Notes: generated from the sequence alone by a model not told the origin. A stretch of DNA of 64,000 bases from an uncultured Candidatus Peregrinibacteria bacterium (GCA_903825315.1 CAIKAD010000003.1:11053-75052), one strand, 5' to 3'; positions 25 to 57,725 are shown, counted from the stretch's first letter. A program made the numbers and translations.

Positions 25-99
25 CAGGAATAACAGCAGTTCCTCCGCCTCTTCTGCATCCTCTCCATCATCTGCTTCCTTTACTTCTTCTGCAGAAGC
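25..99. repeat. partial low-complexity element (GCAGAAG-type arm) at window edge
   Basis: cctccgcctcttctgcatcctctccatcatctgcttcc...cttcttctgcagaag. It overlaps the rumA-like stop. Confidence 0.55.
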
Positions 100-7844: not shown

Positions 7845-7917
7845 GAAGAGTATTGAAATAAGGGAATAACAGAGTAACAGGCCCCCTGTTATTCCGTTAT
7901 TCTGTTACTCTGTTCCT
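7845..7917. repeat. long hairpin (AATAACAG units)
   Basis: The stem is centred on taacagg-ccc-cctgtta (7875-7891). It extends to about 24 bp with a few mismatches. Confidence 0.75.
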
Positions 7918-7928
7918 CCCCATACCCT

Positions 7929-13013: not shown

Positions 13014-13065
13014 GGGAAGGCAAGAGTAGCATCAGAGCTTGGTGGGAGCCATAGGGAAGCCATGG

Positions 13066-13176
13066 GAGGATGCAGAAGATACAAGAGATGCAGAAGAATC
13101 AGAGGAGCAAATATTCAACACTTTCTCTGGCACATTCTCTTCTGCATCCTCTGCATCCTCTGCTTCTTCTGCTTCC
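13066..13176. repeat. low-complexity inverted-repeat element (GCAGAAG/GATGCAG units)
   Basis: ggaggatgcagaagatacaagagatgcagaagaatcagaggag on the left, ctcttctgcatcctctgcatcctctgcttcttctgcttcc on the right. Confidence 0.75.
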
Positions 13177-13179
13177 TTC

Positions 13180-14643
13180 TCACTTACACTTCTCCGGCCT
13201 CCTTGCCAGAGCCGCCTTCATTGCCGCATAGGTATTCCCGTAATTATTATTTGCATTCCAGAACGTGAACCCGCAGAGACCATTGTCGTACACACCGTCG
13301 ATCTCGTCGCCGATGCCTTTGGCATCCAGGTTGTACGCCTGAAGCCAGGGACGCAGCTTCTGTGCCTGGTCGGGACCAAGGCGGTCCACATAGCCCTTGA
13401 GCGTGCGCCACACAAGGAAGTAAGGACGGGTGCGCGGACTCTTGCCGGGAATGTAGTACGAGTTCTGTGCAAACGTATCGGGATACGCCATGGGTGCAAT
13501 GATGTCCACATAAGGCGCCAGCTTCACAAAATCCTGCCCCAAGGGCTCCACATTGACATCAAAGTCCCAGCCGAGAATGGCATACGTACTAATGCCGATG
13601 CGTGCGACGGGATTAATGGTGTCACGGGTGTCCCGCGCCATCTGCAAAAATGTCACGAGACGGTCGGCTTTCTCTTGCCCGGTAAGACCGGTGTCCTGCG
13701 GGCGCACGGCTGTGGAGAAGCGAATGTAATCGAACAGGACCTCATCAATGCCACCCCGTAGTAGGCTCTCCAGAATCTCCCGATTGTACGTGAGCGTCGC
13801 CTCCTTTCCCGGATCCGCCCAGGCAAGACCCAAATCCGCCCCGGTCTTTACGTTCTTGATCCGCGCTCCCGGCACGGCATCCACGAAGAGCTTATCCTTG
13901 AGCGCAATAAACCTCCCAATAGTGTAGAGATTGCGTTCCTTTGCTGCGGCAATGACAATCGGAAGATCGTAGGAAGGAATGGCCGTGCCGATCTCGTTGG
14001 CCATGGGTGCTTCCGTCGCAAAGTAGACGTACGTCCCTTTCACATCGAAGACCACTGCGCTGCCGCCCGACGCCTTGATGCTGTCCAGCGTGTCGAGGAA
14101 AAACTTCTCCCGTTTGACACTGCCCGGAGAGAGATACACGCCGGTGACGTTGTCCGCACGGGGAATGGGGCCGGCACTGACCGTCGGGTGAGGAAGCATT
14201 TTCCCCAGCTGCAGGGCACCCTTCCCCTTGCCCGCCCGCACCGCACGACGGACAGCCTCAGGATCGAGCAGGGCACCGGAAGCAGAAAGCACACCGCCGG
14301 ACGAGGGAACGGCAAAGCGGAACCGTGAATGGGAAGCGGGGAGAGGGAAGAGGGCACGGGGAGGACTCTTCTGTGTACGCGAGATCACTGACGAAGAACT
14401 GAATTGCAGGAGAGACGCAGGAGCGTTCTTAAAGCGGAAAAAAGCCTCTGCCGTTGTCCCCCGCGAAAAGGCGAGAATGAAAGCAAACGCGCCGAACATC
14501 AGGAATGCGATGACAAAAAGACCACGGGAAACCGCGGAGCCTTGGCGAAGCTCTGAGCGAAGACGGACGCCCCCCTGCCGTGACGCCCGGGAAATCTTCA
14601 CGGGTGTGCGGGTGCGACGGGATGAGGAACGCTTCATGGCCAT
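13180..14643 (-). CDS. membrane-anchored putative glycoside-hydrolase-like protein (GHL/DUF4015-type, from memory)
   Basis: 487-aa ORF. Basic N-terminus plus one TM helix. TIM-barrel-like segment FDVKG..YF, GRFIALKD, DEVLFDYIRF. Confidence 0.55.
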   Translation of the reverse strand: MAMKRSSSRRTRTPVKISRASRQGGVRLRSELRQGSAVSRGLFVIAFLMFGAFAFILAFSRGTTAEAFFRFKNAPASLLQFSSSSVISRTQKSPPRALFPLPASHSRFRFAVPSSGGVLSASGALLDPEAVRRAVRAGKGKGALQLGKMLPHPTVSAGPIPRADNVTGVYLSPGSVKREKFFLDTLDSIKASGGSAVVFDVKGTYVYFATEAPMANEIGTAIPSYDLPIVIAAAKERNLYTIGRFIALKDKLFVDAVPGARIKNVKTGADLGLAWADPGKEATLTYNREILESLLRGGIDEVLFDYIRFSTAVRPQDTGLTGQEKADRLVTFLQMARDTRDTINPVARIGISTYAILGWDFDVNVEPLGQDFVKLAPYVDIIAPMAYPDTFAQNSYYIPGKSPRTRPYFLVWRTLKGYVDRLGPDQAQKLRPWLQAYNLDAKGIGDEIDGVYDNGLCGFTFWNANNNYGNTYAAMKAALARRPEKCK

Positions 14644-16389: not shown

Positions 16390-16483
16390 AGGAGTAACAG
16401 AATAACAGAGTAAGAGAATAACAGGGATCCTCTCCGAACCCAGAAACCTGTTATTCTGCTCTTCCCTTATTCCATTATTCCCT
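16390..16483. repeat. low-complexity inverted-repeat element (AATAACAG units)
   Basis: gagtaacagaataacagagtaagagaataacaggg on the left, cctgttattctgctcttcccttattccattattcc on the right. Confidence 0.7.
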
Positions 16484-31717: not shown

Positions 31718-31757
31718 GTGGGGAGAATATCAGAGCGGGTGCGAATTTTCCTCCGTC

Positions 31758-31846
31758 AAAAATTCCAATGTTCAATGAACAATGATCAAAACGCTTCGTT
31801 CCCGGGATCGTTTTGGATCATTGGAATTTTGATAATTGGTCATTCT
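31758..31846. repeat. hairpin element, CCAATGATCA/TTGGTCATT family, conserved-loop subtype
   Basis: aaaattccaatg...aatgatcaaaacg CTTCGTTCCCGGGAT cgttttggatcattggaatttt. Confidence 0.75.
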
Positions 31847-31905
31847 GTAAGCAGATTTGTGTATGGAGATGAGAAAAGCAATGAATAGCATAAACTCTAA
31901 TAATA

Positions 31906-31914
31906 TGGTATAAT
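31906..31914 (+). promoter_or_regulatory. extended -10 promoter element (TGgTATAAT)
   Basis: TGGTATAAT lies 12 nt upstream of the ATG at 31927. Confidence 0.45.
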
Positions 31915-31926
31915 GTCAGTACAAAA

Positions 31927-32271: not shown

Positions 32272-32285
32272 GTACGACTGGAGAG

Positions 32286-32362
32286 ATCAATGACCAAGTA
32301 AACAATGATCAAAACGCCCCTGCTGAGGATCGTTTTGGGATTTTGGAAAATTGGTTCATTCT
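32286..32362. repeat. hairpin element, same family, CCCTGCTG-loop subtype
   Basis: caatgatcaaaacg CCCCTGCTGAGGAT cgttttggg. Confidence 0.7.
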
Positions 32363-32363
32363 C

Positions 32364-33131
32364 TCAAGAGAGAGGTTCCGATTTCCCATACCGCACTACC
32401 AGCGACGGAAAAACGAGAACAGCATTCAGAATGCGCCGCGCGCGCCACGGCTCCCGCACAAGACGCCACGCCCACTCGCATCCGAGTTTCTGGACGATCT
32501 GCGGCGCACGCTTCTGGACACCGGTAAGAAAGTCGAACGCGCCGCCCACGCCCATCGCCACTTTGACGCTCGTGAGGGACGGGAGGTAGCGCCTGATCCA
32601 CAGCTCCTGCGCAGGCGAGCCGAACGCTACAAAGAGGACGGAAGGATTGGACGCATTGATGCGCGCAATGATTTCCCGCACGTCGCTTTCCCGCGGTGAC
32701 CCGGCATAGGTGCCGGCAATCTTGAGGCGCGCGTTCCGCTCCTTAAGGCGCAGCGCTGCTTTTTCCGCCACGCCCGGTTTTGCACCAAGGAGAAAAACAG
32801 GATGGTCCGGCGTTAGGACGCGGCACAGCTCCTGCATGGTATCCACGCCCGTCACCCTGTGGGGGAGTGACTGCCTGGTGAGTCGCGCCATCCAGAGCAG
32901 CCCCGCACCGTCCGGCAGATTGAGGCTCGACGACTGCAAAATGCGCCGGAACTCGCGGTTGCGAACGGCCTCCACCAGCATCTCGCTGTTGGGGGTAACC
33001 ACCTGATGCTGGCGATGGCTCTCCAGAAAATGAAGAACCCTCATCACCGCAGCATCCATGGTGAGGGAATCGATGGGAATCCCCAGTAGTGTGACTTTGC
33101 CCGCAGAATCATCGGAAGAATGGGCCACCAT
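32364..33131 (-). CDS. WecG/TagA/CpsF-family glycosyltransferase (ManNAc transferase-like)
   Basis: LLGIPIDSLTMDAAV, VVTPNSEMLVEA, LPDGAGLLW and GVGGAFDF motifs. Confidence 0.8.
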   Translation of the reverse strand: MVAHSSDDSAGKVTLLGIPIDSLTMDAAVMRVLHFLESHRQHQVVTPNSEMLVEAVRNREFRRILQSSSLNLPDGAGLLWMARLTRQSLPHRVTGVDTMQELCRVLTPDHPVFLLGAKPGVAEKAALRLKERNARLKIAGTYAGSPRESDVREIIARINASNPSVLFVAFGSPAQELWIRRYLPSLTSVKVAMGVGGAFDFLTGVQKRAPQIVQKLGCEWAWRLVREPWRARRILNAVLVFPSLVVRYGKSEPLS

Positions 33132-38060: not shown

Positions 38061-38112
38061 TCAGGGGGGATTTTGACGGAAAACGAAGTGGAACGAAAGA
38101 GAGGAAATGGCA

Positions 38113-38224
38113 GAAAATCCCAATGATCAACTATCAATTCTCAAAACGCTTCGTCGCCCGGACCGTTATTGATCATTGAAGATTGACAATTAATCATTCG
38201 ATATGTCGGCATTTGGTCATTCTC
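38113..38224. repeat. hairpin element, CCAATGATCA/TTGGTCATT family, conserved-loop subtype
   Basis: cccaatgatcaa...tcaaaacg CTTCGTCGCCCGGAC cgttattgatcattg...ttggtcattc. Confidence 0.7.
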
Positions 38225-38241
38225 ACGTAACGTTCTAAGCT
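38213..38241 (+). promoter_or_regulatory. candidate promoter, short leader
   Basis: TTGGTC-17 nt-TAAGCT, then 6 nt to the ATG at 38248. The -35 hexamer is part of the repeat arm. Confidence 0.3.
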
Positions 38242-38247
38242 TTCTCC

Positions 38248-39225
38248 ATGCCGGGATCAGTCAGCATCCTCATTCCCACCTACCAGCCGAACACAGCCTT
38301 CCTTCGGGAAGCAGTCCAATCGGTGCTCGCACAGACGCACACGAACTGGCAACTCCTCATTCACGATGACGCGTCGGATGTGGATGTCATGGACGGCATC
38401 GCACCTTTTCTATTGGATCCCCGGATTCGCGCGGAGCGGAACATCATTCGTCTGGGAATCGGCGGAAACTGGAATGCCTGCCTTCAACAGGCTTCGGGGG
38501 ATTACGTCGCCTTCCTCTTCCAAGATGATGTGTGGCATCCGGAGTATCTCAAGGAAGCAGTGGCAGCATTGGAACGGGAACCGCGCGTGGGACTTGTTGC
38601 CTCCTTTCATGCGTACCAAACGGACGGGAGCGCCGAGGCGGCAACATTTCTCAAGACCGCCGGCTTCGATGCTGTGCAGGAAACACGGCGCCATGCCATG
38701 CAACCGGGACAATGTGACGGCAGGGTATTTTTGAAGATGTGGACCGGGCGCGGCCTGCATCCCAACCTCATCGGTGAGCCGAGCTTTGTGGTGCTGCGGA
38801 AATCCGTTGTGGACAAGGTTGGCTTCTTCCGCGAAGACATGCCGCAAGGATTGGATCTGGAATACTGGACGCGCGCTCTCCTGGCGAGCGACCTCTTTAC
38901 CATCACCCGGGAATCCGGTTTCTTCCGCGTCCATCCTTCCGCTGCAAGCATGCAAAACGACCAAACCGGCGCCGGCCTCACCGACCGTTTGCGCTGCATC
39001 GAGTCGTTGATGTCAGCATCCACGACACCACGCGATCTCAAGGATATCGCGCGCCAAACCTTCTCCTTCCAGCTCTCCATGATGTTCCGCAAAGCGCGCA
39101 AGCGTCGGGAAGAGGGGAAGAGCATGGGGAAGGGGAACGCTCGATCGGTCTTGCCGATCCTCTTGCATCATCCACTTCTGACTCTTCAATCACTCGTAAT
39201 GTCCGGGCAGAAGAATCAGGAATAG
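38248..39225 (+). CDS. family-2 glycosyltransferase
   Basis: VSILIPTYQPN....AVQSVLAQTHTNWQLLIHDDASD. Confidence 0.75.
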   Translation: MPGSVSILIPTYQPNTAFLREAVQSVLAQTHTNWQLLIHDDASDVDVMDGIAPFLLDPRIRAERNIIRLGIGGNWNACLQQASGDYVAFLFQDDVWHPEYLKEAVAALEREPRVGLVASFHAYQTDGSAEAATFLKTAGFDAVQETRRHAMQPGQCDGRVFLKMWTGRGLHPNLIGEPSFVVLRKSVVDKVGFFREDMPQGLDLEYWTRALLASDLFTITRESGFFRVHPSAASMQNDQTGAGLTDRLRCIESLMSASTTPRDLKDIARQTFSFQLSMMFRKARKRREEGKSMGKGNARSVLPILLHHPLLTLQSLVMSGQKNQE

Positions 39226-39306
39226 TGAATCATGAATCAAGAACGTCGCTTGATCCGATTCTTCATTCTTACTTCTACATTCTTTATTCCTAATACCTGA
39301 TTCTTC
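39210..39306. repeat. low-complexity inverted-repeat element (AAGAATC units)
   Basis: The outer arms agaagaatcagg / cctgattcttc are exactly complementary. The inner part carries gaatcatgaatcaagaa / attcttcattctt units. Confidence 0.7.
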
Positions 39307-39315
39307 GGCCTCCAT

Positions 39316-40398: not shown

Positions 40399-41268
40399 AT
40401 GGCAAAGCAGAACACCTACGCGCCGGTCCGGATCCTGCAGGAATCGTGGGAATACCTGCGCAAGCAGCCAGTGTTGAGCTGGGTTCTCGTGTGGCTCCTC
40501 ATTCTCCCCACCGTCCTGTCGTCGTGGGTGGACCGCGTCTGGAAGGCGCAGCGGGGATTTGTCCCAGGCAACGCACTGCACTTTGAGCCACTGGACCTGT
40601 TCTACCTCTCCCTCTCCATCTTCTTCGCCCTCCTCACACTGTGGGGCGTGAGCGCTGTGCTGCTCGTAGGCAAGCGCATGGTAGTACGCCGCGCGGGAAG
40701 GACCCGCTCTTCCTTCCGGCGCGTTATCCTCGACGCTCTACCCATGGTCTTCCCGCTCCTCCTCACCTCCATCCTCCAGCAGTGCCTCGTGTTCTACCGC
40801 GCACTGCTCTACATCATCCCAGTGGGAATGGCGTTCTATGTCATCCACCGCGCCCTCCTGGGCCCTGCCGACGCAGCGCGCGCAGCCTTTCTGTCACTTC
40901 TCATTCTCTCACCCCTCCTCATTCCCGCGGTCGTGTACTGGCTGCGGACCATCCTCTTCCCCGCCGTATTCGGCTGCGAGGAGAAGGCATACCGCGAGGC
41001 ACTCCAACGGAGCAGCGCACTCATACGCGGGCGTTTCGGCCCGGTAGTGCTCACCATCCTTGCCCTCGCACTCCTCACCTTCCTTCCTGCCATAATCATT
41101 TCGTGGGTCACTGCTCTTCTTACGCCCGCTGGCCCTGTGCTGTTGCCCTACGCTATGGATATCATCCATGCCGCCCTCTCATCCACCGCGCTCCTGATGT
41201 TCATCCTGGCCATGACCGGACTGTACGGGAGGCTCAAAGAGAATGCGCCGAAGCATGTGGAGGTTTGA
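40399..41268 (+). CDS. polytopic membrane protein, unknown function
   Basis: About 6 hydrophobic helices. ATG at 40399 (MAKQNTY...). Confidence 0.5.
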   Translation: MAKQNTYAPVRILQESWEYLRKQPVLSWVLVWLLILPTVLSSWVDRVWKAQRGFVPGNALHFEPLDLFYLSLSIFFALLTLWGVSAVLLVGKRMVVRRAGRTRSSFRRVILDALPMVFPLLLTSILQQCLVFYRALLYIIPVGMAFYVIHRALLGPADAARAAFLSLLILSPLLIPAVVYWLRTILFPAVFGCEEKAYREALQRSSALIRGRFGPVVLTILALALLTFLPAIIISWVTALLTPAGPVLLPYAMDIIHAALSSTALLMFILAMTGLYGRLKENAPKHVEV

Positions 41269-41270
41269 TA

Positions 41271-41358
41271 CAATGAACCAATAGTCCAAAATCCCAATTC
41301 CCAAAATGACCCTGCTGTCATTCGTTTTGGTCATTGATAATTGGTCATTGGTCATTCG
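41271..41358. repeat. hairpin element, same family, CCCTGCTG-loop subtype
   Basis: ccaaaatcccaattcccaaaatga CCCTGCTG tcattcgttttggtcattgataattggtcattggtcatt. Confidence 0.7.
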
Positions 41359-41361
41359 TCC

Positions 41362-41565
41362 TCACAACGTCTTGGATGTGTAGTCGTTGAGCACCGAAGT
41401 CAAACCCTTAATGACAACCTGGGGAGGCATGTCGTGCGCGGAGTAGGTGATGCCGAACTCATCGTCGCTCTTCGGCCATCCGAAGACAATGAACCCGGGG
41501 CGCCCGAGTTCCCGGAGAAACGCTTCGCACTTCTGCTGGATTTCCTGCTCACTGTCGTCAGTCAT
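41362..41565 (-). CDS. small hypothetical protein (67 aa)
   Basis: ATG at 41565 (MTDDSEQEIQQK...). Downstream of rplT on the same strand. No family recognised. Confidence 0.35.
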   Translation of the reverse strand: MTDDSEQEIQQKCEAFLRELGRPGFIVFGWPKSDDEFGITYSAHDMPPQVVIKGLTSVLNDYTSKTL

Positions 41566-44703: not shown

Positions 44704-44775
44704 GTGTTTTCTTGATAGTATAGCGGAAAATGATGATTTGGTGAAGGTGGGGAATCTTGACAGCCTGAAGATGTA

Positions 44776-44898
44776 GAGGAAACGAAGGAATCAGAGGATG
44801 CAGAAGAGAAATCCCTCAGGAATACGATAAATGACCTCTCCTCTGCTTCTTCTGCATCATTTGCTTCTTCTGCGTCTTTTGCCTCCTCTGCATCCTCC
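44776..44898. repeat. low-complexity inverted-repeat element (GCAGAAG/GATGCAG units)
   Basis: ggaatcagaggatgcagaagag on the left. ctctgcttcttctgcatcatttgcttcttctgcg...cctctgcatcctcc on the right. Confidence 0.7.
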
Positions 44899-44958
44899 CA
44901 AGTCCTATCACTATCACCACCGAACCTGTACCATAACCCCAGTCCTTACTCCGTTCCT

Positions 44959-48007: not shown

Positions 48008-48099
48008 GAATTGAAAATTGAAAATGAGAAATGGAAAATTCTGAAAGCTATTGAAATCCCGAATGACTTCCATCATTTTCAATTTTTCATTTCCCATTC
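48008..48099. repeat. low-complexity inverted-repeat element (TGAAAAT/GGAAAAT units)
   Basis: ttgaaaattgaaaatgagaaatggaaaat on the left, catcattttcaatttttcatttcccattc on the right. Confidence 0.7.
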
Positions 48100-50313: not shown

Positions 50314-51567
50314 TCAGGTGCCCTCCTGCCAGCTACTGAGGTACTTCTTCTGTTCCTCGGTGAGTTCGTCGATCGCAATACCCATCACCTCCAGCTGCGT
50401 CGTGGAAATGAAGTCATCGATCTCCCGCGGAAGCGTGATGACGGTGGGCTTCATGTTTCCCCTGTTCTTCACGAGATACTCACATGCGAGCACCTGGCCG
50501 CAGAAACTGAGGCTCATGACTTCGCTGGGATGCCCTTCTGCCGACGCGAGATTAACCAGCCGCCCTTCGCCGGCAACATACAGAACACGGCCGGACGGCA
50601 TCTTGTATTCGTCAAGGTAATGACGCACGCGACGCTTGGACTTGGCTGTTTTTTCCAGATCCACAAGATCAATTTCGCAGTCGAAATGGCCGGAGTTGGC
50701 GAGCACGGCCCCATCCTTCATCTTCTCCATGTGTTTCACAGTGAGCACGTGGATATCGCCTGTAACGGTGACAAAAATATCGCCCCAGCAGGCGGCATCT
50801 TCCATCTTCATCACCAAATGGCCGTCCATGGCGGCCTGCATCGCCTTGAAGGGATCAACTTCGGTCACTATCACCCGTGCCCCCAACCCCTTCGCGCGCA
50901 TCGATACGCCCTTGCCGCAACTCCCATACCCGGCAACGACGACTGTTTTTCCCGCCACGAGGATATTCGTGGAGCGGAGGATGCCGTCGAACGTGGACTG
51001 GCCCGTGCCGTAGTAGTTATCGAAGAGGTGCTTGGTCTTGTTGTCGTTCACCGCGATCATTGGGCACTTGAGCACGCCATCCCGCTCCATCGCACGCAAC
51101 CGGATAATGCCGGTAGTCGTCTCCTCGCACCCGCCGATCAGGCCGGACAACAGTTCCGGATGCTTGGTATGCAGGAGCGTGACAAGATCACACCCGTCAT
51201 CGATAGTAATGTGTGGCTTGGTCTTTAATACTTCCTCAAGGTACGTGTAGTAGTCCTCCTTCGATTCGCCTTTGTACGCCCACACCTGCACGTCCTTCTC
51301 CTCCGCAAGAGCGGCAGCCACATCATCCTGCGTGCTGAGGGGATTGCACCCGGTGATGGCCACCTTCGCCCCGCCTGCAACAAGAGTCTTGACCAGTATG
51401 CCTGTCTCCTTGGTCACGTGCAGCGCCATGCCGATGGTGAGCCCTTGGAAGGGCTTCTCTCTGGCAAAACGCTCACCAAGCTTGAGCAGCGCACCCATGC
51501 GCTTTTCGGCAATTTCGAGATTGAGGCGGCCTTGCGCCGCTAAAGAGGGATCTTTGACGGAAGACAT
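50314..51567 (-). CDS. ahcY: adenosylhomocysteinase
   Basis: 417-aa ORF with CNPLSTQDDVAAAL, GYGSCGKG and HFDCEID motifs. Confidence 0.95.
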   Translation of the reverse strand: MSSVKDPSLAAQGRLNLEIAEKRMGALLKLGERFAREKPFQGLTIGMALHVTKETGILVKTLVAGGAKVAITGCNPLSTQDDVAAALAEEKDVQVWAYKGESKEDYYTYLEEVLKTKPHITIDDGCDLVTLLHTKHPELLSGLIGGCEETTTGIIRLRAMERDGVLKCPMIAVNDNKTKHLFDNYYGTGQSTFDGILRSTNILVAGKTVVVAGYGSCGKGVSMRAKGLGARVIVTEVDPFKAMQAAMDGHLVMKMEDAACWGDIFVTVTGDIHVLTVKHMEKMKDGAVLANSGHFDCEIDLVDLEKTAKSKRRVRHYLDEYKMPSGRVLYVAGEGRLVNLASAEGHPSEVMSLSFCGQVLACEYLVKNRGNMKPTVITLPREIDDFISTTQLEVMGIAIDELTEEQKKYLSSWQEGT

Positions 51568-51578
51568 GGAACGAGTGT

Positions 51579-51670
51579 AATGGAAAATGAGAAATTGGAA
51601 ATTGAAAATGACAGAAACAACTCAAGAAACAATCATAACTTCCAAATTTTCCATTTTGCATTTTCAATGT
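51579..51670. repeat. low-complexity inverted-repeat element (GGAAAAT/TGAAAAT units)
   Basis: aatggaaaatgagaaattggaaattgaaaatga on the left, ccaaattttccattttgcattttcaatg on the right. Confidence 0.7.
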
Positions 51671-51705
51671 TCATGCGTCAACGCAACAAAGAATCAGACA
51701 ACTGA

Positions 51706-52662: not shown

Positions 52663-52691
52663 AGTGTGCCTGTTATTTGTGCGTCTGGCAA
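52663..52691 (-). promoter_or_regulatory. candidate promoter (kinase side)
   Basis: Minus strand: TTGCCA-17 nt-CACACT, then 9 nt to the ATG. The same boxes occur in cassette copy 2. Confidence 0.4.
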
Positions 52692-52820
52692 AGGATGCAA
52701 AGGTTGCAGAAGATGCAGAAGAGGCAGAGGAATGATGATACATCGCTTCGAAAGCAGGGTGATGACTATTCCTCTGCATCCTCTGCTACCCCTGCATCTT
52801 CTGTATCTTTCCTGTGGTCG

Positions 52821-54289: not shown

Positions 54290-55237
54290 ATGAAAATTCT
54301 CCTCACTGGCGCGGCCGGCTTCATAGGCTTCCACACTGCGCAACAGCTTCTCGCCCGCGGCGACGAGGTGATAGGCCTCGATAACTTTTCCCCGTACTAC
54401 GATCCGAAATTGAAAGAGGCACGGGCGGCGCAGCTGGAAGGAAAGAATGGATTCCAGATGATCCGTGCGGACATTCTGGACCGGGACGCAGTAAGCAAGG
54501 CAATGAAGGGATGCGACCGGGTGTGCCATCTCGCCGCGCTCGCCGGCGTGCGCTACGCCTTTGACCATCCCGACGAGTACATCGACATCAACATCCGGGG
54601 ATTCTTTAATGTATTGGATGAAGCGCGCAAGCAGGAGATTGCGGGGATGACCTATGCCTCCTCGAGCTCAGTGTACGGCGGCAACACTAAAATGCCGCTC
54701 GCCGAGACGGACCGCACCGATAACCAGCTCTCACTCTACGGCATGAACAAGAAGGACAACGAGCTGATGGCGCACGCGTACCACTCGCTCTACGGCCTTC
54801 CGGTTACCGGACTCCGGTTCTTTACGGTGTACGGCCCGTGGGGGCGGCCGGACATGGCACTCTTCCTCTTTACGGACGCCATCCTCCACAACCGCACACT
54901 CCAGATCTACGGTCAGGGAAAGATGCAACGCGACTTCACGTTTGTGGACGACATCGTCTCCGGCATCGTCGCGTCTATCGACAAGAACTTTCCTGAGGAA
55001 GTCTTCAATCTGGGCTGCGGCCGCACAGAGGAGTTGATGGACTATGTCGCCGCCGTGGAGAAGGCTTGCGGCAGGGAAGGGAAGAAGGAGTTCCTCCCCA
55101 TGCAGCCGGGTGACGTGGTGCGCACGGAAGCGGACATTGCCAAGGCAAAGAAGATGCTCGGCTTTGACCCCAAAACGCAGATCAAGGAAGGCGTGCCACG
55201 GTTCGTCGAGTGGTATAGGAAATACTACGGACTCTAA
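54290..55237 (+). CDS. UDP-glucuronate 4-epimerase-like SDR
   Basis: MKILLTGAAGFIG and YGMNKKDNE (YxxxK). RFFTVYGPWGRPDMA is typical of the GAE/LpsL/Cap1J group. Confidence 0.8.
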   Translation: MKILLTGAAGFIGFHTAQQLLARGDEVIGLDNFSPYYDPKLKEARAAQLEGKNGFQMIRADILDRDAVSKAMKGCDRVCHLAALAGVRYAFDHPDEYIDINIRGFFNVLDEARKQEIAGMTYASSSSVYGGNTKMPLAETDRTDNQLSLYGMNKKDNELMAHAYHSLYGLPVTGLRFFTVYGPWGRPDMALFLFTDAILHNRTLQIYGQGKMQRDFTFVDDIVSGIVASIDKNFPEEVFNLGCGRTEELMDYVAAVEKACGREGKKEFLPMQPGDVVRTEADIAKAKKMLGFDPKTQIKEGVPRFVEWYRKYYGL

Positions 55238-55242
55238 AAATA

Positions 55243-55326
55243 GCCAATTGTCCAAAATCCCAATGACCAAAAACGGTCCGGGGGACGAAGTGTTTTGGTT
55301 GTTGAACAATTGGTCATTGGTCATTT
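55243..55326. repeat. hairpin element, CCAATGA/TTGGTCATT family, conserved-loop subtype (inverted orientation)
   Basis: ccaattgtccaaaatcccaatgaccaaaaacg GTCCGGGGGACGAAG tgttttggttgttgaacaattggtcattggtcatt. The right arm encodes the last codons of the GT-C gene. Confidence 0.75.
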
Positions 55327-56516
55327 TCCCTCACCCACACCTCCGTCGGAAGATTGGGCAGCGTGACCCAGCCATCCCGCTTCTTCATGTCGTCACACTG
55401 ATCCAGGCAGACCACGGCTTGCGCATTGGTGAGTAAGGAAGGATGGAACCTCAGGACAGGGAAGGAACTCTCGTACTGCCAGTCATGCCCGAATGATCCG
55501 GCGATAAGGACGGTGCCCGTCTTACCCTGGAGCGCAATCGACTGCATCACGGCGCGGGACGCACCAGGCTTAAGGGACGGCGGAAAAAGCCCAACGCAGA
55601 GGACGGTAATGAGCGCGACGGGGCCGAGGACGGAGACAGGACTACTCCATGCGCGCCGAAGAAAGAGGACCATCCCCGCAACTAAGAGCGGCGTGAAGAG
55701 GATGGCGTAGTACATCCGGAAGGAGACGTAGAGGAACGCCGCAACGAGAGCCAAGCTCAGGAACATCGCCCACTGGCGATCCAGAGCCATGCCCACAATG
55801 CCCACAATTCCGATGAGGATGCTCCCGCCCACGCACCACGCCTGAAAAAGGGAGAGAGCCTTGTCCATGGGCGTAAGGGACGTATTGAGCGCGCCTGCGT
55901 TGACAAAGCTGGCCAAAATCGCGGGTTCCGCAATGCCGAAGAGAAGTGCGAGCGGAAGCGGTGCGAGAACATACAACGCTTTCTGCCACCACGGGAAACG
56001 GAGCGGGAGGAAGAGCGCGACGACGATGGGAAAGTAGAGGACGGCCTGGTACGCAGTGAGGAGCGAGACAAGCCACAGAAGCCCCGCTCCAAACGCTTGC
56101 CACGGCCCCCAGTTCTCGGGATTGCGTCGCGCTTCAAAGAGCAGCGCGAGAAAAAGGAGACCCTCCAGCGCCGTAAGGGGTGCCATCATCACCGAGCCTG
56201 CTTGCAGCACCACCGCGGCACAGAGGAGCCAAGCCGCCATCGTGGTAACGCGCTGATCGCGGGAGAGTTCACGCGCCATCCACCACACAATCCACGCCGC
56301 CTGCACCACAAGCGTGGCAAAGATGACGCGCCACAGGAGTTCCTGGTACGGGAAGCGCGATGTGAGCGCGATGAGGGACCGCGCGAGCGGCGGATGCGGG
56401 TACGGAATATTGAGGAGGTACTTCGCCTCGTCTGTGCGGACTCCGCCGATGGCCTGCACCCACGCAAGGAGCAGCGCATACAACTCGAAAAGAATGGCGT
56501 ACATCAGCTTCCGCAT
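55314..56516 (-). CDS. GT-C-fold membrane glycosyltransferase (ArnT/PMT-like, GT39/GT83-type)
   Basis: 400-aa polytopic ORF. First-loop motif RTDEAKYLLNIPYPHPPL. Confidence 0.6.
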   Translation of the reverse strand: MRKLMYAILFELYALLLAWVQAIGGVRTDEAKYLLNIPYPHPPLARSLIALTSRFPYQELLWRVIFATLVVQAAWIVWWMARELSRDQRVTTMAAWLLCAAVVLQAGSVMMAPLTALEGLLFLALLFEARRNPENWGPWQAFGAGLLWLVSLLTAYQAVLYFPIVVALFLPLRFPWWQKALYVLAPLPLALLFGIAEPAILASFVNAGALNTSLTPMDKALSLFQAWCVGGSILIGIVGIVGMALDRQWAMFLSLALVAAFLYVSFRMYYAILFTPLLVAGMVLFLRRAWSSPVSVLGPVALITVLCVGLFPPSLKPGASRAVMQSIALQGKTGTVLIAGSFGHDWQYESSFPVLRFHPSLLTNAQAVVCLDQCDDMKKRDGWVTLPNLPTEVWVRENDQ

Positions 56517-57558: not shown

Positions 57559-57696
57559 TGACCGCTGGAAAGATGCAGAAGATGCAGGGGTAGCAAAGGA
57601 TGCAGAGGAATGGTCATCACCCTGCTTCCGAAGCGATTTACCATCATTCCTCTGATTCTCCTGCATCTTCTGCATCTATTGATCCCCCTGCATCCT

Positions 57697-57725
57697 TTGC
57701 CAGATCCATCCTCCACAGGCACACT
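57697..57725 (+). promoter_or_regulatory. candidate promoter (SDR side)
   Basis: TTGCCA-17 nt-CACACT, then 8 nt to the ATG at 57734. Confidence 0.4.

What the first reader, a model, noticed from the sequence alone, without database searches (positions are those of the whole stretch)
31788..31814. Hairpin family with variable stems but a conserved 27-nt apical core
Three elements share the core AAAACRCTTCGTYSCCCGGRMYCGTTWT:
- 31788-31814: AAAACGCTTCGTTCCCGGGATCGTTTT.
- 38143-38169: AAAACGCTTCGTCGCCCGGACCGTTAT.
- Reverse complement of 55268-55296: AAAACACTTCGTCCCCCGGACCGTTTT.

Two others share a second core with CCCTGCTG: 32310-32336 and 41303-41328.

The reverse complement of the 41303-41328 core (ACAGCAGGGTCAT) resembles the centre of the duplicated cassettes (AAAGCAGGGTGAT, preceded by CGCTTCG). 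This links the families.

A conserved loop on top of divergent stems is what a sequence-specific protein site (for example a REP/RAYT-type hairpin) or a small structured RNA would look like. A plain terminator would not show it.
Basis: seen in the sequence. Interest (0 to 1): 0.6.

Follow-up and report, generated by a model that had tools for sequence, protein, structure and literature searches.

The report
Mobile heptamer-armed hairpin repeat family
The "conserved cores" are the variable tips of about 60 scattered 100-base hairpin repeats with conserved 7-base-repeat arms, most likely gene-less miniatures of a small four-helix-bundle gene cassette that occurs in many bacterial phyla and spreads by an unknown route.

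Summary
The three 27-nt "cores" exist. They are the apical loops of 93-110-nt imperfect palindromes whose arms each hold about five AATGAYC-type heptamers. This 1.29-Mb Peribacteria-like (CPR) genome has 64 such loci: 52 are full length and 5 lie in the window.

Stems are conserved (pairwise identity 0.72-0.82) and loops vary (0.38). At least two unrelated loop types exist: 11 copies with CGCTTCGT..GACCG and about 16 with CCCTGYT.

I found no compensatory changes, no strand or gene-context bias, no Rfam match and no terminator signature.

Copies are insertions. The 93 nt at window 41269-41361 fill a gap between two stop codons that abut (TGA|TCA) in a congener. There is no target duplication.

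The genome has no RAYT, DDE, TnpB or RT gene. One copy carries an Avd-like four-helix-bundle gene (TIGR02436/PF05635) in its loop, and all 7 such genes lie between tandem-repeat arms. Protein clade and repeat word are inherited together, in Peribacteria and in one Bacteroidota genome. The same inner stem occurs in more than 115 contigs from at least 7 phyla.

Best reading: a REPIN/MITE-like selfish miniature of that cassette, with the mobilisation mechanism unknown. The scan noted this layout earlier on other DNA.

The parts
31759..31845 (.). Copy 1 of the heptamer-armed palindrome. Arms AAAATTCCAATGTTCAATGAACAATGATCAAAACG / CGTTTTGGATCATTGGAATTTTGATAATTGGTCATTC, with a class-I loop. It lies in a divergent spacer.
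   Evidence: D12; 75.4 bits. The orthologous spacer is only 54 nt in G004 and 44 nt in G005, with no hairpin.
31788..31814 (+). It comprises the last 6 bp of the inner stem (AAAACG/CGTTTT) plus the 15-nt class-I apical loop CTTCGTTCCCGGGAT.
32273..32364 (.). Copy 2, with a class-II loop (CGCCCCTGCTGAGGATCG). It fills the convergent spacer between the 114-aa ORF and the WecG-family gene.
   Evidence: 55.9 bits. All five congeners carry a tandem-repeat hairpin here, but of different repeat words.
38109..38222 (.). Copy 3, with a class-I loop (CGCTTCGTCGCCCGGACCG) and more degenerate arms. It lies in the divergent spacer between the POR alpha-subunit gene and the GT2 gene.
   Evidence: 46.9 bits. 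Every congener has a hairpin of another word family in this spacer.
41269..41361 (.). Copy 4, with a class-II loop inverted relative to the arm asymmetry (ACCCTGCTGTCATT). It is exactly the 93 nt between stop codons TGA (41266-41268) and TCA (41362-41364).
   Evidence: 74.5 bits. Empty sites: the two stops abut in G004 (0 nt); spacers are 1 nt in G002 and G003, 5 nt in G001 and 12 nt in G005. G006 has a different-word hairpin at the same junction.
55238..55336 (.). Copy 5, with a class-I loop on the minus strand (CACTTCGTCCCCCGGACCG). It starts immediately after the TAA stop at 55235-55237.
   Evidence: I11; 79 bits.

Best explanation
SHOWN:
- The cores are the tips of a family of about 60 dispersed imperfect palindromes of 93-110 nt.
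- Architecture: outer stem AATGACCAATT/AATTGGTCATT, an asymmetric internal loop, inner stem CAATGACCAAAACG/CGTTTTGGTCATTG, and a 12-20-nt apical loop. Each arm is about five tandem heptamers of the AATGAYC/CCAAnnn type.
- The arms define the family. The loops are subfamily tags (class I, class II and others) inherited from a few master copies.
- Copies are gained and lost as whole units in intergenic DNA, in either orientation and in any gene context, without target-site duplication.
- One copy has a 126-aa Avd-like four-helix-bundle gene (TIGR02436/PF05635) in place of the short loop.
- All seven such genes in the genome lie between inverted tandem-repeat arms.
- Protein clade and repeat word are co-inherited across genomes and phyla.

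INFERRED:
- The short hairpins are ORF-less miniatures of these hairpin-bounded cassettes. The relationship is the one between a MITE and its IS, or a REPIN and its RAYT.
- They spread either with help in trans from the cognate four-helix-bundle protein binding its repeat word, or through host recombination or replication at hairpins.
- When transcribed they would form long double-stranded RNA that RNase III could cut, as in rRNA intervening sequences.
- Nothing found here indicates selection on an RNA function.
For: Family and architecture:
- nhmmer finds 64 loci, 52 of them at least 80 nt.
- Model R1 gives 92 strand-hits of up to 92 bits in the own genome.

Stems more conserved than loops.

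No sign of RNA-level selection:
- No covariation.
- No bias by gene context.
- No bias of orientation relative to transcription, 9 against 11.
- No terminator or promoter signal.
- No Rfam match.

Insertion behaviour:
- Exact empty site TGA|TCA in G004, and 1-12-nt spacers in four more congeners, against 93 nt in G000.
- Spacer 1 is filled only in G000.
- Copy number among 40 relatives is patchy, 0-33.
- 0 of 40 copies have a flanking direct repeat of 2 nt or more; the control gives 3.5.

No canonical mobility gene: Y1_Tnp, DDE_Tnp_1, rve, TnpB and RVT_1 are all absent at 99.6% completeness.

Cassette link:
- There are 7 PF05635 genes, each between inverted arms whose repeat word matches one of the ORF-less hairpin families.
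- C1:271104-271481 lies between half-hits of this family and scores 50.1 bits on TIGR02436.
- The same layout appears in Planctomycetota, Desulfobacterota, Bacteroidota and a named Peribacteria genome.

Co-inheritance of protein and word:
- A clade with 100/97 support joins the G000 protein with proteins whose arms are AATGACC (G045), CAATGACC (Lewinellaceae G043) and CCAAGCA or CAAGAAA.
- Orthologues in G006 and G013 have AATGACC arms. Those in G018, G019 and G028 have CCAAnnn arms.

Co-occurrence of hairpins and this protein clade in 40 relatives: 11/5/3/21, Fisher p = 4.9e-4.

Cross-phylum spread:
- 65 of 109 have complementary flanks, against 11 after shuffling.

RNase III is encoded.
Against: - Only 1 of about 60 copies carries the gene, and its arms are diverged (22-27 bits). 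The gene could therefore be a passenger that landed in a hairpin rather than the source of the family.
- Four-helix-bundle/Avd-like proteins have no known transposition chemistry.
- Five relatives have a few hairpins without the protein. Three have the protein without hairpins detectable by the model.
- The co-occurrence test is not corrected for phylogeny.
- At least five other hairpin word families in this genome have no four-helix-bundle partner.
- Two of four spacers examined carry some hairpin in every congener. This could mean host selection for a hairpin at those sites.
- There are no transcript data.
Confidence: 0.6

Rival explanations
1. REP/REPIN elements mobilised by a RAYT (IS200/IS605-like tyrosine transposase).
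For: It is a dispersed, intergenic, hairpin-forming family of about 100 nt inserted without target duplication. REPINs are likewise doublets that form long hairpins (PMC3116915).
Against: No Y1_Tnp match in a 99.6%-complete genome, while the control genomes do ring. The consensus has no GTAG or CGTC tag (the defining feature is given in PMC3733652). The arms are tandem heptamers, not a 20-40-bp REP pair.
Confidence: 0.04
2. A host-selected RNA element: a bidirectional terminator, insulator, mRNA-stabilising hairpin or RNase III processing site. The family would spread because hairpins are useful between genes.
For: Two of four spacers examined carry a hairpin of some family in every congener. 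Many copies fill the whole spacer next to stop codons. RNase III is present. rRNA intervening sequences with similar stems are cut by RNase III (PMC4990558).
Against: No covariation and no orientation bias. The share of copies in divergent spacers equals the background share. There is no G+C-rich stem plus T-run. Five congeners have 0-12-nt spacers where G000 has the element. Copies sit inside the rplK region between co-directional housekeeping genes.
Confidence: 0.15
3. A classical MITE derived from a DDE-type insertion sequence that has since been lost or is unassembled.
For: Terminal inverted arms, small size, many copies, presence/absence polymorphism.
Against: No DDE_Tnp_1, rve or TnpB gene. 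No target-site duplication at 40 copies or at the exact empty site. The arms are tandem heptamers along their full length rather than short terminal repeats.
Confidence: 0.06
4. An array of binding sites for a chromosomal or regulatory protein, acting at the DNA level. The heptamer word would be the functional unit, as speculated for cyanobacterial heptamer repeats.
For: The same word is conserved across phyla. Nostoc has GAC(C/T)AAT x8 upstream of recO with effects on reporter expression (10.1101/2022.06.06.494920). Stems are equally conserved within and between loop classes.
Against: Presence/absence among congeners, and replacement by unrelated words at the same spacer, argue against a fixed site-specific role. 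There is no positional relation to promoters or start codons.
Confidence: 0.1
5. Independent local birth by replication slippage and palindrome formation, with no movement.
For: Heptamer repeats are the class most prone to slippage (Mrazek 2007, as cited in PMC4679880). The G004 empty site reads ATGATCA, which resembles the word.
Against: About 60 copies share the same arm order, the same asymmetric internal loop, and 15-nt loops in 11 and about 16 copies. That requires copying from masters.
Confidence: 0.03

Closest known systems
REPINs / REP sequences with RAYT transposases (Bertels & Rainey 2011, PMC3116915; Di Nocera 2013, PMC3733652)
   Same: A dispersed intergenic family of about 100 nt that forms a long hairpin. 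It is non-autonomous, inserts without target duplication, has several subfamilies per genome, and is linked to one small gene that is itself flanked by the repeats.
   Different: There is no RAYT gene and no GTAG/CGTC tag. The arms are tandem 7-nt words. The linked gene is a four-helix-bundle protein, not a tyrosine transposase.
ORF-bearing 23S rRNA intervening sequences (Leptospira, Coxiella; PMC4990558) and 23S_rRNA_IVP-bearing rRNA insertions of CPR bacteria (10.1101/2024.02.27.582315)
   Same: A long stem of inverted repeats enclosing a PF05635/S23p gene. They are regarded as selfish, possibly mobile, elements of unknown mechanism. The stem is an RNase III substrate.
   Different: The elements here lie in ordinary intergenic spacers, not in rRNA helices. 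Nearly all copies lack the ORF. The stems are made of tandem heptamers. RNase III cutting was not tested.
Cyanobacterial STRR / heptamer repeats (for example GAC(C/T)AAT x8 upstream of Nostoc recO, 10.1101/2022.06.06.494920) and TAACTGA repeats of Beggiatoaceae, Cyanobacteria and Bacteroidetes (PMC4679880)
   Same: Intergenic tandem heptamers with a patchy cross-phylum distribution, which suggests horizontal spread with no known mechanism. The Nostoc word GACCAAT/GATCAAT is the same as the word here.
   Different: Those are described mainly as direct arrays near start codons. Here two inverted arrays form a discrete hairpin unit with a defined loop, and the unit is inserted as a whole. No link to four-helix-bundle genes is reported in those papers.
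MITEs (miniature inverted-repeat transposable elements)
   Same: A short non-coding derivative with the same inverted ends as a gene-bearing element. High copy number and presence/absence polymorphism.
   Different: No transposase, no target-site duplication.
Avd of diversity-generating retroelements (PF05635-like; PMC10053308)
   Same: The cassette protein belongs to the same four-helix-bundle superfamily. Its only PDB match by sequence is 2RLD, deposited with 5 chains.
   Different: The genome has no reverse transcriptase and no template or variable repeats. This is not a DGR.

Membership tests
REP/REPIN-RAYT | A RAYT (Y1_Tnp, PF01797) gene in the genome, flanked by the repeats | tested here: not met
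   0 matches at 99.64% completeness; 6 of 14 control genomes ring.
REP/REPIN-RAYT | A 20-40-bp palindromic unit with an unpaired GTAG or CGTC tag at one end (PMC3733652) | tested here: not met
   The consensus of 27 copies has no conserved terminal GTAG/CGTC. The unit is a 93-110-nt array of heptamers.
REP/REPIN-RAYT | Inverted doublet forming a long hairpin, dispersed in extragenic space | tested here: met
MITE | Terminal inverted repeats, size under about 300 bp, many copies | tested here: met
MITE | Target-site duplication | tested here: not met
   Exact empty site TGA|TCA against TGA-93 nt-TCA. 0 of 40 copies have a flanking direct repeat of 2 nt or more.
MITE | A parent IS with a transposase and the same ends | tested here: not met
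   No DDE_Tnp_1, rve, TnpB or Y1_Tnp. The only ORF-bearing relative encodes a four-helix-bundle protein.
Four-helix-bundle (PF05635/TIGR02436) hairpin cassette / rRNA IVS | A long stem of inverted repeats around the insert | tested here: met
Four-helix-bundle (PF05635/TIGR02436) hairpin cassette / rRNA IVS | A PF05635/TIGR02436 ORF in the loop | tested here: not met
   None of the five window copies has an ORF; their loops are 12-20 nt. Only C1:271104-271481 has one. The window copies are therefore at most ORF-less derivatives.
Four-helix-bundle (PF05635/TIGR02436) hairpin cassette / rRNA IVS | Location in 23S rRNA helix 25/45 and excision by RNase III | tested here: not met
   All copies lie in spacers between protein-coding genes. 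Excision cannot be tested with these tools; an RNase III gene is present.
STRR / long simple-sequence heptamer repeats | Tandem heptanucleotide units in intergenic DNA | tested here: met
   The word GAC(C/T)AAT is the same as in Nostoc.
Structured RNA family (sRNA or cis-regulatory) | Compensatory base changes that keep the helices | tested here: not met
   covariation score 0.095 against 0.090 in shuffles (149 of 500 shuffles are at least as high).
Structured RNA family (sRNA or cis-regulatory) | Match to a curated Rfam model | tested here: not met
Intrinsic terminator | A G+C-rich stem followed by a T-run, at 3' ends of transcription units | tested here: not met
   none of the elements is flagged. 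Context equals background, including divergent spacers.

The most novel reading that the evidence does not exclude
Hairpins with tandem-repeat arms, together with Avd-like four-helix-bundle genes, form a previously undescribed pan-bacterial class of mobile element.

In this reading each protein clade recognises its own 7-9-nt word, possibly as a pentamer reading the roughly five words of an arm. It then drives copying or retention of both the gene-bearing cassettes and their ORF-less miniatures.

This would explain the cyanobacterial STRR heptamers, the TAACTGA-type repeats and the ORF-bearing rRNA intervening sequences as facets of one system.
Probability: 0.3. Interest if true: 0.85.

Novelty: new variant of a known kind. 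Interest (0 to 1): 0.6.

Why it matters
Small dispersed palindromes (REP, MITE, STRR) are common in bacteria, but for many of them the means of spread is unknown.

Here a tiny, transposase-free CPR genome carries hundreds of such hairpins. One family shares its 7-base word with elements in at least seven phyla and with the classic Nostoc heptamer. The only gene that travels with the word is an Avd-like four-helix-bundle protein.

That turns two old puzzles into a testable protein-and-word hypothesis: what STRR-type repeats are, and what the 'S23p' proteins of rRNA intervening sequences do.

For genome annotation, it also explains many phantom ORFs and the AT-rich spacers in CPR genomes.

Tried and rejected
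- RNAalifold on the 27-copy alignment slipped register among the heptamers and gave a meaningless 7-pair structure. I specified the helices by hand instead.
- An ungapped and a strict-scoring palindrome census missed most elements. Softer scoring with a shuffle control worked.
- A BLAST self-search for long-range inverted arms found only one cassette.
- k-mer enrichment in the loops of the other hairpin families showed no shared loop motif.
- The CGCTTCG / GCAGGGT 'link' between families is within chance once copies by descent are counted once.
- A loop-only pattern searched in 40 relatives was swamped by coding-sequence background and is uninformative.
- A metagenome scan with a 20-mer from the neighbouring ORF returned only chance hits, so no strain-level empty sites were obtained.
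- A viral-contig scan for the inner stem returned 0 hits.
- A literature search by heptamer strings returned only primer noise.
- The orthologous site of the gene-bearing cassette lacks it in G006 and G001, but the neighbourhood differs too much to define boundaries.
- A DGR or retro-mobility reading was rejected because there is no reverse transcriptase.

Full report
**1. What is at the coordinates**

There are small errors. The 55268 copy starts at 55270. The 28-letter consensus is one letter longer than the 27-nt copies, so it matches only one copy ungapped.

Read in context, each 'core' is the tip of a much longer imperfect palindrome. An example is AAAATTCCAATGTTCAATGAACAATGATCAAAACG-[CTTCGTTCCCGGGAT]-CGTTTTGGATCATTGGAATTTTGATAATTGGTCATTC at 31759-31845. 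The arms are runs of about five heptamers of the AATGACC/AATGATC type; read from the CCAA, the words are of the CCAAnnn type.

**2. Family size**

The window is G000:C3:11053-75052 in a 1.29-Mb, five-contig genome of 55-58% G+C that is 99.6% complete.
- An nhmmer profile finds 64 loci, of which 52 are at least 80 nt.
- Five loci are in the window (31759-31845, 32273-32364, 38109-38222, 41269-41361, 55238-55336) and a sixth lies just beyond its end.
- Each folds into an outer stem (AATGACCAATT/AATTGGTCATT), an asymmetric internal loop, an inner stem (CAATGACCAAAACG/CGTTTTGGTCATTG) and an apical loop of 12-20 nt.
- The POR genes of the window match a contig titled Candidatus Peribacteria bacterium RIFCSPHIGHO2_01_FULL_51_35 collinearly at 67-74% nucleotide identity. 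The organism is therefore a Peribacteria-like CPR bacterium, as earlier notes of the scan said.

**3. Conserved loop or conserved stem?**

In an alignment of 27 oriented full-length copies (A2), mean pairwise identity is as follows:

| Comparison | Inner stem | Outer stem | Apical loop |
|---|---|---|---|
| All 27 copies | 0.82 | 0.72 | 0.38 |
| Within class I | 0.875 | 0.876 | 0.77 |
| Class I vs class II | 0.85 | 0.755 | 0.30 |

- Loops fall into class I (CGCTTCGTCCNCNNGACCG), with 11 copies genome-wide against 0 for the reversed control.
- Class II (CG-YCCCTGYT...) has about 16 copies. About 22 loops belong to neither class.
- In a few copies the loop is inverted relative to the arm asymmetry. 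Examples are window 41303, C2:180212, C5:170125 and C2:65527. Recombination between inverted arms would produce this.
- The proposed link to the duplicated 9-mer cassettes at 52.7/57.6 kb rests on CGCTTCG plus a 9-of-10 match. CGCTTCG is in hairpin apexes 11 times against 2.1 expected, but from only two independent lineages. I do not regard the link as shown.

**4. Is it a structured RNA or a terminator?**

- With the helices specified by hand, 84.7% of cells pair against 84.4% in column shuffles, and the covariation score is 0.095 against 0.090. The pairing is what a palindromic master sequence gives, and later mutations are not compensated.
- Orientation relative to flanking co-directional genes is 9 same against 11 opposite.
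- Copies occur in convergent, tandem and divergent spacers in background proportions.
- None is flagged as terminator-like or promoter-like above the shuffle level.
- No Rfam family matches.
- Copies flank ordinary housekeeping genes such as rplK, nusB, rpiB and dus.

**5. Are the copies mobile?**

The model R1 built from A2 scores up to 92 bits in the own genome but at most 53 bits in 40 relatives. Hits there are patchy: 5 of 7 congeners, with 0-33 strand-hits per genome. Relatives carry related CCAA-type hairpins with their own loop types.

Four orthologous spacers were compared across congeners:
- **Window 31721-31921.** The element is in G000 only. The spacer is 54 nt in G004 and 44 nt in G005.
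- **Window 41269-41361.** In G000 the 93 nt lie exactly between the stop codons of two convergent genes. In G004 the stops abut as TGA|TCA. G002 and G003 have 1 nt, G001 has 5 nt and G005 has 12 nt. G006 has a hairpin of an unrelated word at the same junction.
- **Window 32272-32363 and 38061-38247.** Every congener carries a tandem-repeat hairpin, but of different word families.

No target-site duplication is seen at the exact empty site or at 40 copies, of which 0 have a flanking repeat of 2 nt or more against 3.5 in the control. The elements are therefore gained, lost and replaced as units.

**6. What could move them?**

The genome has no Y1_Tnp/RAYT, DDE_Tnp_1, rve, TnpB or reverse-transcriptase match, while control genomes ring in each search.

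Following a lead from earlier notes of this scan, I searched for PF05635.
- There are seven genes. Each lies between inverted arms of short tandem repeats.
- Each arm word corresponds to one of the ORF-less hairpin families of the genome: GATGCAGAA, GAAACCGAG, GAGTAACA, TCGTTTYTCG, CATTGTT, CCAAGCA and AATGAYC.
- The AATGAYC one is C1:271104-271481. Its arms are the two half-hits of the nhmmer profile.
- Its product scores 50.1 bits on TIGR02436, 'four helix bundle protein'. Its only PDB match by sequence is 2RLD, an entry with five chains.
- PF05635 is regarded as Avd-like (PMC10053308).

**7. Beyond this genome**

By my own calculation about 3-5 are expected by chance.
- The hits come from Desulfobacterota, Planctomycetota, Bacteroidota, Chloroflexota, Omnitrophota, Nitrospirota and Peribacteria, often with several per genome.
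- 65 of 109 have complementary flanks beyond the pattern, against 11 after shuffling. The flanks are again CCAA-type heptamers, and the loops are lineage-specific.
- In five of those genomes most PF05635 genes also lie between inverted tandem-repeat arms. In a Lewinellaceae genome one of them has CAATGACC arms.
- A maximum-likelihood tree of 29 such proteins has a clade with 100/97 support. It unites the G000 AATGAYC-armed protein with its CCAAGCA-armed paralogue, two proteins from the Peribacteria genome G045 (arms AATGACC and CAAGAAA), and the Lewinellaceae CAATGACC-armed protein.
- Other sister pairs between the two Peribacteria also share similar words.
- Orthologues in relatives have AATGACC arms (G006, G013) or CCAAnnn arms (G018, G019, G028).
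- Among 40 relatives, presence of model-detectable hairpins and presence of this protein clade co-occur: 11 both, 5 hairpins only, 3 protein only, 21 neither. Fisher p = 4.9e-4, not corrected for shared ancestry.
- All four hairpin-rich relatives (11-33 hits) have the protein.

**8. Interpretation**

Shown:
- A dispersed, unit-wise inserted palindrome family with conserved arms and variable loops.
- No canonical mobility gene in the genome.
- A physical and phylogenetic link between this arm word and one clade of four-helix-bundle genes, extending across phyla.

Inferred:
- The short hairpins are ORF-less miniatures of the gene-bearing cassettes.
- The protein, or host processes acting on hairpins, accounts for their spread.
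- Transcripts through them would be RNase III substrates, as shown for the Coxiella intervening sequence, whose 28-bp stem of inverted repeats is cut by RNase III (PMC4990558). An RNase III gene is present here.
- That about five words per arm match a pentameric protein is speculation.

**9. Comparison with what is known**

- The behaviour is closest to REPINs (PMC3116915), but the defining RAYT and GTAG/CGTC tag (PMC3733652) are absent.
- The layout is that of ORF-bearing rRNA intervening sequences (PMC4990558; for CPR, 10.1101/2024.02.27.582315), but outside rRNA and mostly without the ORF.
- The words are those of cyanobacterial heptamer repeats; GAC(C/T)AAT occurs eight times upstream of Nostoc recO (10.1101/2022.06.06.494920).
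- The patchy cross-phylum spread with 'no mechanism evident' parallels the TAACTGA repeats (PMC4679880).
- In the searchable literature only eight papers mention PF05635, TIGR02436 or the IVS protein (seven were listed, two read). Neither paper I read describes tandem-repeat arms or ORF-less copies.
- Earlier notes of this scan had already described the same cassette layout in this and other genomes. The phenomenon is therefore not new to the scan.
  - the ORF-less family itself;
  - the exact empty site;
  - the match between protein clade and repeat word;
  - the co-occurrence test;
  - the cross-phylum word.

**10. Limits**

- Gene calls for the context statistics are my own crude ORF model.
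- The co-occurrence test ignores phylogeny.
- The cross-phylum scan was ascertained on the stem, so it cannot by itself show that loops are never conserved. The loops it returned do differ by lineage.

Noticed in passing
window 25-99, 7848-7928, 13057-13191, 16391-16482, 39206-39310, 44767-44903, 48012-48058, 51565-51673, 52680-52810, 57560-57700: At least five further families of intergenic hairpins built from other tandem words: GATGCAGAA 9-mers, GTTATTCY 8-mers, AAGAATCA, AATGGAAAAT and GAAACCGAG. Genome-wide, about 110 AT-rich palindromes lie outside the heptamer family.
   Followed up: partly
G000 C1:64804-64949, C1:121298-121450, C1:318959-319135, C1:305302-305491, C4:29164-29348 (outside the window): A separate G+C-rich palindrome family of 150-190 nt (CCGCCCTCACCCCTACCCC...GGGGTAGGGATGAGGGCGG) with nested GGGGGAAGGGG stems. 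It is unrelated to the tandem-word hairpins.
   Followed up: no
window 41303-41328; G000 C2:180212, C5:170125, C2:65527, C1:39794: In several copies the apical loop is inverted relative to the asymmetric arms. Flip-flop recombination between the inverted arms would produce this.
   Followed up: partly
G000 C4:42823-43424 and C5:228935-229195: Composite cassettes. One reads arm - four-helix-bundle gene - second copy of the same arm - short loop (TTCCTTCGCCCTGAGCGAG) - opposite arm. The other reads arm - gene - arm - 57 nt (containing ACGCTTCGAGG) - duplicate arm. They look like recombination products between a gene-bearing hairpin and an ORF-less one.
   Followed up: no
G000 C2:176881-180312 (outside the window): Five heptamer hairpins within 3.4 kb, one in each spacer around rplK (L11) and a dus gene. 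They sit inside what is usually a co-transcribed ribosomal-protein region.
   Followed up: no
G006:C6:51230-51640 (L248): At the same stop-to-stop junction where G000 has copy 4, G006 has a 270-nt insert with a GTACGGG-type 8-mer hairpin. This is an independent insertion of another family at the same point.
   Followed up: partly
window 31900-31926: A TATAAT-like box 12-15 nt upstream of the ATG of the 114-aa ORF is kept in G000, G004, G005 and G001 (GGTATAATG / GATATAATA / GCTATAATG / GCTATACTG). This suggests a very short leader or leaderless mRNA.
   Followed up: no
G004 empty site, L243 (G004:C1:1335250-1335420): The abutting stop codons read CATGATCACA. This contains ATGATCA, nearly the AATGATC word of the element inserted there in G000. 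It may be microhomology or target preference, but there is only one case.
   Followed up: no
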